Of a stretch of DNA of 64,000 bases, positions 55,181 through 55,749 are shown one piece after another. The stretch's first letter is position 1; every line of letters starts with the position of its first letter. Location of the stretch: positions 1,815 through 65,814 of IMG/VR virus record IMGVR_UViG_3300010392_001176. One strand, 5' to 3'. The position numbers were made by a program, and so were the translations under genes. A model generated the notes under the pieces. That model saw only the letters and a program-made list of their open reading frames with translations. It was not told where the DNA came from and did not search any database. The DNA is from a virus. Taxonomy: Duplodnaviria; Caudoviricetes.

Positions 55181-55749
55181 CATCGCAATCCATTTCAGAA
55201 CAAAACATGACAATACTCGGCGGCAAATCAAGGCATATCCCGCCCGTCCAGAACGGCTCTCGTCGCCAAAACAAAACAGTACAGGGCATTACTCGACGAC
55301 ACAACAAACCAACCCGCCCCGCATCATTTCACTACGCAGCATAACATTACTCGTCGTCATGCCATCACATAGCATTTCGGTACAGATCACATCTCGACGG
55401 CACTACACTCCGCACCAGCACATCACTCTTCTCGTCGCCACAACACTTCATCGCAGTTCTCGAAGTCAAAACGAAACGGCCCACCACACCCCACTCCGCG
55501 AAGGCAACTCACCCCGATCCGTAACATCACACCTCACCTCATTCCGCGAAGTCAGCTCATCACGCGACACCTCTACGCGGCACACACCACTTCTCGACGG
55601 CAGGGCAACCCACCACACACCATATCATCCCACCACTCGAAGGCAAAACGTTCCACCACGCGGCACGGCAAATCTCGAAGTCAGGACGCTTCACAACTAT
55701 CCACGGCATGTCTCGTCGCCAGCTCCGAACAGCTCACGGCACTCCATTT
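55181..55749 (-). ncRNA. Pentamer-coded guide array (14 blocks, 93 NNN-YG units, 13 octamer delimiters) paired with the RAMP gene
   Basis: Plus strand: all 93 pentamers begin with C (72 CA, 15 CG, 3 CC, 3 CT); delimiters C(T/G)CGN(A/C)GN; abuts RAMP stop codon. Expression as RNA is inferred. Confidence 0.85.

What the first reader, a model, noticed from the sequence alone, without database searches (positions are those of the whole stretch)
55553..55592. Block 10 decodes to the tyrosine-integrase catalytic motif LHDLRHT
Seen: G-CTT-CAC-GAC-CTA-CGG-CAC-ACC-TT = L-H-D-L-R-H-T-(F/L). Established: HxLRH(T/S) is box II of tyrosine recombinases. The phage's own integrase has YHSLRRH with a very different DNA sequence, so it is not a self target. 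Inference: the system targets the integrase gene of a competing prophage or island.
Basis: partly seen in the sequence, partly recalled or inferred. Interest (0 to 1): 0.85.

Follow-up and report, generated by a model that had tools for sequence, protein, structure and literature searches.

The report
VIPR guide aimed at integrase motif
One unit of a phage guide-RNA array of the recently described VIPR kind spells the first two letters of each codon of the catalytic LHDLRHT motif of tyrosine integrases, so the phage probably silences a rival element's integrase; both the system and the tactic were published in 2026.

Summary
Block 10 (55553-55592) is eight pentamers.

The locus is a VIPR system, a class described in three 2026 bioRxiv preprints. 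It has a lone Cas7-like protein (55751-56374, minus strand) followed by a 570-nt array of pentamers.

The published rule is two letters read, one target letter skipped. Under it block 10 reads CTN CAN GAN CTN CGN CAN ACN TT, with every skipped letter on a codon wobble position.

- That pattern hits 105 viral contigs, against 20 for a reversed control.
- 45 of the 80 listed hits lie in frame in integrase genes.
- A second, distant array carries an independent HDLRH guide. Only 148 of 20,000 shuffles gave even one.
- The phage's own integrase matches 7 of 16 read letters.

So the reading is supported, but the rival element is not identified and no binding is shown. A VIPR guide on a serine recombinase active site is already in print. 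This scan has noted VIPR loci before (687 notes, at least 466 genomes).

The parts
55751..56374 (-). vipr-like gene: a 207-aa stand-alone Cas7/Csm3-like RAMP protein
   Evidence: AlphaFold2 model with mean pLDDT 88.5. VIA-align Z 12.2 to type VII Cas7 8yhd_A and 11.1 to Csm3 6ae2_B. Foldseek E 1e-7 to 9j9e_D1. No Pfam or PHROG family. 305 homologues at E <= 0.001 and 890 representative clusters.
55181..55750 (-). vrRNA array: 14 guide blocks of 4-10 pentamers, separated by 13 delimiters of 8 nt. On the transcribed strand the pentamer is Y-G-N-N-x and the delimiter is TG-N4-CG followed by AG.
   Evidence: The same kind of array lies within 1.2 kb downstream of the homologous gene in 51 of 53 related loci. 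Rfam found no family and TRF saw no array.
55553..55594 (-). The read letters specify the target CTN CAN GAN CTN CGN CAN ACN TT, which is L-[H/Q]-[D/E]-L-R-[H/Q]-T-[F/L].
55547..55554 (-). Delimiter on the 3' side of block 10 in the direction of transcription (TGACTTCG). It is lost together with the guide in a variant phage.
   Evidence: A contig of run X3, with only 4 differences in the vipr gene, joins 55546 to 55595. It skips exactly this 48-nt unit.
55595..55602 (-). Delimiter on the 5' side of block 10 (TGCCGTCG)
   Evidence: Delimiter logo from 450 delimiters.
57022..58152 (-). The phage's own tyrosine integrase (box II YHSLRRH), which is not a target of block 10
   Evidence: Pfam Phage_integrase at E 4.5e-18. 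It matches 7 of 16 read letters at its box II.

Best explanation
The locus is a VIPR (Viral Interference Programmable Repeat) system. The 207-aa Cas7-like protein probably polymerises along each guide RNA, one protomer per pentamer. It would hide the fixed letters (here x-Y-G) and present the two variable letters. These would pair with double-stranded DNA while every third target letter is skipped.

Block 10 is one such guide. Its 16 read letters are the first two letters of each codon of L-H-D-L-R-H-T-F, box II of the tyrosine-recombinase catalytic domain. All skipped letters fall on wobble positions. The most likely effect is binding and silencing of the integrase gene of another temperate phage, satellite or island in the same host, which would block its integration or excision.

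Shown here:
- the protein fold;
- the array, and its link to the gene across the family;
- the reading rule, in relatives of this family;
- the fit of block 10 to integrase genes;
- the absence of a self target;
- the gain or loss of whole units between near-identical phages.

Inferred from the preprints on phage SUSP1, and not shown here: transcription and processing of the array, assembly of the filament, DNA binding and silencing.
For: Protein and array:
- The fold is Cas7/Csm3-like.
- The genome has no CRISPR-like repeats. None of 57 other ORFs matched a defence-family model.
- A period-5 array lies downstream of the gene in 51 of 53 related loci.

Reading rule, tested on 173 distinct blocks of 7 or more units against about 0.5 Mb of related loci:
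- Only 'read positions 3-4, skip position 5' gave long perfect matches.
- L021 block 3984 matches the vipr genes of L020 and L027 at 20/20 read letters, spelling HGYAGERSDG.
- L025 block 4037 matches a methyltransferase ORF in L012 at 16/16, spelling VTDPPYG.

Block 10:
- Its pattern hits 105 stretches in viral contigs, against 20 for the same pattern reversed.
- Of the 80 loci listed, 39 read LHDLRHTF and 14 read LHELRHTF.
- 61 of the 80 sit in an in-frame ORF of 60 aa or more. 45 of those 61 carry Pfam Phage_integrase and 8 carry Arm-DNA-bind_3.
- An independent HDLRH-S guide sits in L021, whose Vipr is about 39% identical to this one. Only 148 of 20,000 shuffles gave one or more such series.
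- In all 4 decoded motif cases the skipped letter falls on the wobble position.

Literature:
- 10.64898/2026.04.26.720920 (Results and methods sections 18 and 20 read) gives the class, the 1-nt skip rule and targeting of rival phages.
- 10.64898/2026.04.26.720927 (sections 5 and 6 read) gives the filament structure.
- 10.64898/2026.10.15.759431 (sections 6 and 8, and passages found by term) shows a guide on a satellite's serine recombinase active site blocking excision.
Against: - No specific rival was found. The best match in the phage's own genome and 53 related loci under the contiguous rule is 17 of 24, which is background.
- The exact 24-mer is absent from viral contigs.
- The wobble letters of the 80 listed hits agree with the guide at only 0-4 of 7 places.
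- Exact 16/16 matches are rare: 105 stretches in 2.9 million viral contigs. This is not a universal anti-integrase guide.
- 35 of the 80 listed hits are not shown to be integrase. Of these, 19 lie in ORFs under 60 aa and 16 in longer ORFs without the Pfam domain, including a recurring LQDLRQTF protein of about 720 aa.
- Sequence similarity to the characterised SUSP1 Vipr is weak. hhalign gave E 0.047 at 1% probability with 28 sequences, and E 3.9e-4 at 35% probability over 49 columns with 142 sequences.
- The fixed letters are Y-G rather than G-G-Y. There is no structured 3' tail and no conserved accessory gene.
- No RNA data exist for this locus.
- The motif was chosen after the fact, so only the L021 replicate is a clean test.
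Confidence: 0.75

Rival explanations
1. Block 10 is a real VIPR guide, but its likeness to box II is chance. Its true target would be something else that is not in the collections searched.
For: - A single replicate in 289 blocks has p of about 0.007, not vanishingly small.
- The looser motif without the D position gives one or more hits in 186 of 2,000 shuffles.
- No near-exact natural target was found in viral contigs.
Against: - The excess is five-fold over the reversed control, and 45 of the 80 listed hits are integrase ORFs.
- The skipped letters fall on wobble positions in the integrase reading frame.
- The replicate has the same orientation and the same frame.
- There is a published precedent for guides on recombinase active sites.
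Confidence: 0.15
2. The complex acts on RNA rather than DNA. The guide, which is antisense to integrase mRNA, would direct a Csm3-like protein to bind or cut the transcript.
For: - The closest solved folds are RNA-targeting backbone subunits: type VII Cas7 and Csm3.
- Both HDLRH guides and the VTDPPYG guide are antisense to the coding strand.
- Several charged residues are invariant in the family: H85, K87, D88, H138, E192 and R193.
Against: - The HGYAGER guide of L021 has the same sense as its target gene, so it cannot pair with that mRNA.
- The preprints report targets on both strands and binding to double-stranded DNA for the characterised systems (10.64898/2026.04.26.720920, Results).
Confidence: 0.07
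3. The guide regulates the phage's own integrase or lysogeny switch by targeting itself.
For: The array lies 1.3 kb from the phage's own integrase gene, on the same strand.
Against: - The phage's own box II matches only 7 of 16 read letters.
- The best match in the whole 65.8-kb genome is 12 of 16 (0.75), which is below the 80% cut-off used in the preprint.
Confidence: 0.02

Closest known systems
VIPR systems; reference system is type II of Escherichia phage SUSP1 (bioRxiv 10.64898/2026.04.26.720920, .720927 and 10.64898/2026.10.15.759431)
   Same: - A lone RAMP protein of about 200 aa, carried by a phage.
- Guide RNA genes next to it, built of 5-nt repeats with fixed and variable letters.
- Five guide letters per three target letters, two read and one skipped.
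- Skipped letters on codon wobble positions.
- Targets on either strand, in rivals' genes, including a recombinase active site and rivals' vipr genes.
- I saw the SUSP1 locus itself: GGT-NN repeats flanking a 195-aa and a 146-aa gene.
   Different: - The fixed letters are x-Y-G rather than G-G-Y. In 336 parsed blocks Y is 93%, G is 98% and x is G in 48%.
- Guides are short, 4-10 units against 9-16.
- Guides are separated by 8-nt delimiters instead of a structured tail with a pseudoknot.
- No conserved accessory (vap) gene lies next to vipr in this clade.
- The target here is a tyrosine integrase; the published case is a serine recombinase.
- The preprint mentions other repeat forms (NNNGG, YNNNG, NNNNG), seven types and staggered arrays. 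Their figures and tables were not visible to me, so this form may already be listed there.
Class 1 CRISPR-Cas backbone subunits (Csm3 and Cmr4 of type III, Cas7 of types VII and IV)
   Same: RRM fold with a glycine-rich loop and a thumb. One protomer binds each short stretch of guide, and the thumb breaks the pairing periodically (the latter from the preprints).
   Different: - No CRISPR repeats, no other cas genes and no adaptation genes.
- The period is 5 rather than 6.
- The guide letters between the read pairs are fixed in sequence.
- Guides cannot be copies of natural DNA.
Type IV CRISPR-Cas systems of plasmids (recalled from my own knowledge; no call)
   Same: Carried by a mobile element, lacking a nuclease, and thought to silence competing mobile elements.
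   Different: They use ordinary CRISPR arrays with contiguous spacers and several Cas proteins.

Membership tests
VIPR | Stand-alone RAMP protein (single RRM, G-loop, thumb) outside any cas operon | tested here: met
   AF2 model at pLDDT 88.5. Z 12.2 and 11.1 to Cas7 and Csm3. 0 of 57 other ORFs of the window hit PADLOC at E <= 1e-5. The two giant ORFs (3699 and 2030 aa) were left out of that scan.
VIPR | Adjacent non-coding array of pentanucleotide tandem repeats with fixed and variable positions | tested here: met
   86 of 86 pentamers share the fixed letter. Lag-5 identity is 0.464. An array lies downstream of the gene in 51 of 53 related loci.
VIPR | GGY/NN consensus of the characterised type II | tested here: not met
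   The consensus is x-Y-G/NN: T 75% and C 18% at the Y position, G 98% at the next, and G 48% at x. The preprint allows 'a related consensus' for other types. Its figure S17 was not visible to me.
VIPR | Two letters read and one target letter skipped | tested here: met
   Of five rules tried, only read 3-4 / skip 5 gave long perfect hits (20/20 and 16/16) in about 0.5 Mb of related loci. These hits are in relatives. For the window's block 10, support comes from 105 hits against 20 for the control.
VIPR | Skipped letter aligned with the codon wobble position in coding targets | tested here: met
   4 of 4 decoded motif cases: LHDLRHT, HDLRHS, HGYAGER and VTDPPYG.
VIPR | Sequence homology to an experimentally characterised Vipr (SUSP1) | tested here: inconclusive
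   hhalign gave E 0.047 at 1% probability. With 142 sequences it gave E 3.9e-4 at 35% probability, over the G-loop region only. tblastn against 50,697 phage records found no match.
VIPR | Conserved structured 3' tail on each vrRNA (type II) | tested here: not met
   Guides are separated only by TG-[A/C]-[C/A]-G-[T/C]-CG-AG, a logo built from 450 delimiters. The preprint describes other layouts (staggered arrays, legend of fig. S18), which this one may resemble.
VIPR | Accessory vap gene in the operon (typical, not universal) | tested here: not met
   The upstream cupin gene has no counterpart in the 53 loci. Stretches between vipr and the array that are conserved in 15 and 14 other loci have no match in the window.
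VIPR | No self-targeting at 80% or more of read letters | tested here: inconclusive
   Block 10 reaches 12/16 (0.75). The other 8-unit block reaches 13/16 (0.81). Blocks of 4-7 units reach 0.79-1.0, which few letters give by chance.
VIPR | vrRNAs are expressed, co-purify with Vipr, and the complex binds and silences DNA | not testable with these tools
   No RNA run holds the stretch.
CRISPR-Cas (class 1) | Array of identical direct repeats with contiguous spacers, plus cas genes | tested here: not met
   No exact 20-mer occurs 3 or more times at 40-90 nt spacing in the 65.8-kb genome. There were no Cas hits among 57 ORFs. Only a weak Csm4 G-loop match for the protein itself, E 9e-4.

The most novel reading that the evidence does not exclude
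This clade may be a VIPR type not yet described in detail. Its features would be:
- only Y-G fixed in each pentamer;
- mini-guides of 4-10 units, packed between 8-nt delimiters, giving 14 guides in 570 nt;
- no accessory gene;
- whole guide units gained and lost between near-identical phages, much as CRISPR spacers are.

Guides on box II of tyrosine integrases recur in two distant arrays. That would make hitting the integrase catalytic core a general VIPR tactic, beyond the one published serine-recombinase case.
Probability: 0.4. Interest if true: 0.6.

Novelty: new member of a known kind. Interest (0 to 1): 0.45.

Why it matters
This extends a principle published in October 2026: a VIPR guide placed on a recombinase active site and read only at amino-acid-determining codon letters, so that synonymous mutation cannot give escape.

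- The published case is one serine recombinase in E. coli. Here the target is the box II motif of tyrosine integrases.
- The system sits in an uncultured phage with a different repeat consensus. Contigs of six runs labelled marine sediment or subsurface metagenome hold 24-44% of the stretch's sampled words.
- The unit-by-unit differences between near-identical phages suggest where to look for how such guides, which cannot be copied from natural DNA, are made and exchanged.

For the scan itself, a reader without tools recovered both the code and the target class almost correctly.

Tried and rejected
- **Misreading.** I dropped this when one search showed that the string is a decoded one.
- **Known RNA or tandem repeat.** Rfam gave only a chance snoRNA hit at E 0.72. 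TRF saw only a 7-nt repeat.
- **Other explanations of the 5-nt period, considered from my own knowledge and dropped once targets appeared.** These were TRAP-like RNA binding sites, CsrA/Hfq sponges, rut sites, DNA iterons, TIGR-Tas arrays and quintuplet decoding.
- **Other reading rules.** Contiguous NNN, skip position 3, skip position 4, no skip with two letters, and a 2-nt skip gave no perfect long match. The contiguous rule found the L021 hit only at 26/30.
- **blastx of all blocks.** Against local ORFs and against the Vipr family, only the HGYAGER block stands above shuffles: 26.0 bits against a maximum of 20.4.
- **Search for the window's targets.** The phage's own genome and 53 loci gave background only. 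The 10-unit block (55302-55351) gave 0 exact pattern hits in viral contigs.
- **L052.** The repeated period-5 segments seen were artefacts of 100-N gaps.
- **Curated families.** Pfam, PHROGs, NCBIfam and PADLOC give no family for the protein. tblastn against cultured phages found nothing.
- **RNA data.** No RNA holder was listed for the stretch.
- **Supplements.** The preprints' supplementary tables and figures, which may list this clade and its repeat form, could not be seen.
- **Not run.** Complex prediction, build_rna_model and the protein-atlas search.

Full report
**What the finding is.** At 55547-55594 the plus strand reads an 8-nt delimiter followed by eight pentamers of the form NNN-C-R. 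Taking the three variable letters of each pentamer gives exactly the 24-letter string of the finding. The arithmetic is correct.

**The structure around it.**
- From 55181 to 55750 the sequence is built of pentamers with one invariant letter: C on the plus strand, in 86 of 86 pentamers.
- Thirteen delimiters of 8 nt punctuate it. Their spacings are 28 to 58 nt and all equal 3 mod 5.
- Lag-5 identity is 0.464.
- The array starts at the stop codon of a 207-aa ORF on the minus strand (55751-56374). This ORF has no Pfam or PHROG family.
- With an alignment of 28 relatives, the protein folds with mean pLDDT 88.5. It resembles CRISPR backbone subunits: VIA-align Z 12.2 to type VII Cas7 and 11.1 to Csm3, and Foldseek E 1e-7.
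- The genome, one 65.8-kb contig, has no CRISPR-like repeats.
- None of 57 other ORFs matched a defence-family model. The two giant ORFs were left out of that scan.

**The family.**
- The protein has 305 homologues at E <= 0.001 in the word-indexed search and 890 representative clusters in the exhaustive one.
- I fetched 50 viral and 3 genome loci.
- In 51 of 53 a G-periodic 5-nt array lies within 1.2 kb downstream of the gene. One locus has only a single short block, and one ends 209 nt after the gene.
- On the transcribed strand the pentamer is Y-G-N-N-x. In 336 parsed blocks from 45 sources (44 loci plus the window's genome), Y is 93%, G is 98%, and x is G in 48%.
- The delimiter is TG-[A/C]-[C/A]-G-[T/C]-CG followed by AG.

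**It is a known class.** A literature search led to three 2026 bioRxiv preprints on VIPR systems.
- From 10.64898/2026.04.26.720920 I read the Results and methods sections 18 and 20. It describes a lone RAMP protein, Vipr, with vrRNAs of GGY/NN pentamers. The NN letters pair with double-stranded DNA while one target letter in three is skipped, mostly the codon wobble letter. Targets lie in rival phages and satellites. It reports seven types, other repeat forms (NNNGG, YNNNG, NNNNG) and staggered arrays.
- From 10.64898/2026.04.26.720927 I read sections 5 and 6. One protomer binds per repeat, the fixed trinucleotide is sequestered, and the skipped base is extruded.
- From 10.64898/2026.10.15.759431 I read sections 6 and 8 and passages found by term. 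A SUSP1 guide sits on the active-site codons of a satellite's serine recombinase and blocks excision. Other guides target rivals' vipr genes.
- I looked at the SUSP1 locus itself and saw its GGT-NN arrays.

**Which reading rule holds here.** I tested five rules on 173 distinct blocks of 7 or more units against about 0.5 Mb of related loci with the arrays masked. Only 'read positions 3-4, skip position 5' gave long perfect matches.
- A block of L021 matches the vipr genes of L020 and L027 at 20 of 20 read letters and 5-6 of 10 skipped letters. It spells the family's invariant HGYAGERSDG. By my hand count, it differs from L021's own gene at 3 read letters.
- A block of L025 matches a methyltransferase ORF of L012 at 16 of 16 read letters and 3 of 8 skipped letters, spelling VTDPPYG.

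The third letter of each triplet faces the skipped target letter.

**Block 10 under that rule.** The read letters specify CTN CAN GAN CTN CGN CAN ACN TT. Every skipped letter falls on a wobble position of L-[H/Q]-[D/E]-L-R-[H/Q]-T-[F/L].
- This pattern has 105 exact hits in viral contigs, against 20 for the same pattern reversed.
- Of the 80 loci listed, 39 read LHDLRHTF and 14 read LHELRHTF.
- 61 of the 80 lie in an in-frame ORF of 60 aa or more. 45 of those 61 carry Pfam Phage_integrase.
- The other 35 of the 80 are not shown to be integrase. Nineteen lie in short ORFs and sixteen in longer ORFs without the domain, including a recurring protein of about 720 aa with LQDLRQTF.
- The exact 24-mer is absent from viral contigs. 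It occurs twice in metagenome contigs, both times in frame in integrase ORFs of about 400 aa at VRLHDLRHTFAS.
- I give those two hits little weight. Given how common this motif is, a few exact matches are expected by chance (my rough estimate).

**Independent replicate.** Among 289 distinct series of read letters from 45 sources, the series CA-GA-(CT/TT)-(CG/AG)-CA in the wobble-aligned frame occurs twice: in block 10, and in a block of L021 that reads H-D-L-R-H-S. L021's Vipr is about 39% identical to the window's.
- Shuffling the read pairs gave a mean of 0.0074 hits, one or more in 148 of 20,000 shuffles, and two or more in none.
- Without fixing the D position the figures are weaker: mean 0.108, two or more hits in 12 of 2,000 shuffles, one or more in 186 of 2,000.

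**Not a self target.** The phage's own integrase box II (YHSLRRH) matches 7 of 16 read letters. The best match in the whole genome is 12 of 16.

**Unit turnover.** Contigs of four metagenome runs were laid on the locus.
- One contig of run X3 has only 4 differences across the vipr gene. It joins 55546 to 55595, which skips exactly the 48-nt unit of block 10.
- The same contig skips another 38-nt unit (55636-55673).
- It has 110 other letters in place of 55723-55748.
- A contig of run X1 holds 55305-55738 without a difference.

Whole guide units therefore differ between near-identical phages.

**What is not shown.**
- No RNA data exist for the locus.
- No binding has been shown.
- No rival element has been identified.
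- Exact matches are rare, so this is not a universal anti-integrase guide.
- Homology to the SUSP1 Vipr is weak at the sequence level.
- The fixed letters, the short delimiters and the lack of an accessory gene differ from the characterised type. I could not see the preprints' supplements to learn whether this form is already listed.

**Verdict.** The locus is a new member of the VIPR class, and it uses a tactic already published for a serine recombinase. This scan has noted VIPR loci many times before on other DNA: 687 notes in at least 466 genomes.

Noticed in passing
window 55546-55749: A near-identical phage in run X3 lacks two whole guide units (48 nt and 38 nt) and has 110 other letters at the start of the array. 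Guide units are gained or lost as cassettes.
   Followed up: partly
L021 3984-4100: Two neighbouring guides of a distant relative. One reads the family's own HGYAGERSDG motif, matching the vipr genes of L020 and L027 at 20/20 read letters and its own gene at 17/20 (my hand count). The next reads HDLRHS of integrases.
   Followed up: yes
L025 4037-4085 and L012: A guide whose 16 read letters match a methyltransferase ORF at VTDPPYG (motif name recalled from my own knowledge), antisense, with the skipped letters on wobble positions.
   Followed up: partly
window 55507-55546: The other 8-unit guide decodes to a strong Shine-Dalgarno sequence plus ATG. Its read-letter pattern hits 37 viral stretches, 12 of them at ribosome-binding sites followed by ATG GCA of unrelated genes. 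There the skipped letters also mostly agree, for example 6 of 7 (my hand count). No control pattern was run.
   Followed up: partly
window 54923-54945 and 55155-55177: Two copies of a 23-nt repeat (22/23 identical), each holding tandem TGGGCCA, lie just beyond the end of the array. Contigs of runs X1 and X3 diverge from the window exactly at the second copy. The X1 loose end looks like the sequence that precedes the first copy, so this may be a recombination or module boundary.
   Followed up: no
L011-L048 (29 of 53 loci): A conserved stretch of about 250-300 nt, an ORF of about 84 aa in L024, lies next to vipr. It has matches in 15 loci, and a second kind has matches in 14 others. It is a candidate accessory gene, absent from the window and its closest relatives. 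The frame of the second query contained a stop.
   Followed up: partly
all parsed arrays: The guide letter that faces the skipped target letter is G in 48% of 2,068 pentamers. It agreed with the target at 5-6/10, 3/8 and 6/7 in the cases seen. Whether it merely echoes the G of GGY or keeps a memory of the target is open.
   Followed up: no
window 12456-23552 and 45181-51270: Two giant ORFs of 3699 and 2030 aa. They were left out of my family scans.
   Followed up: no
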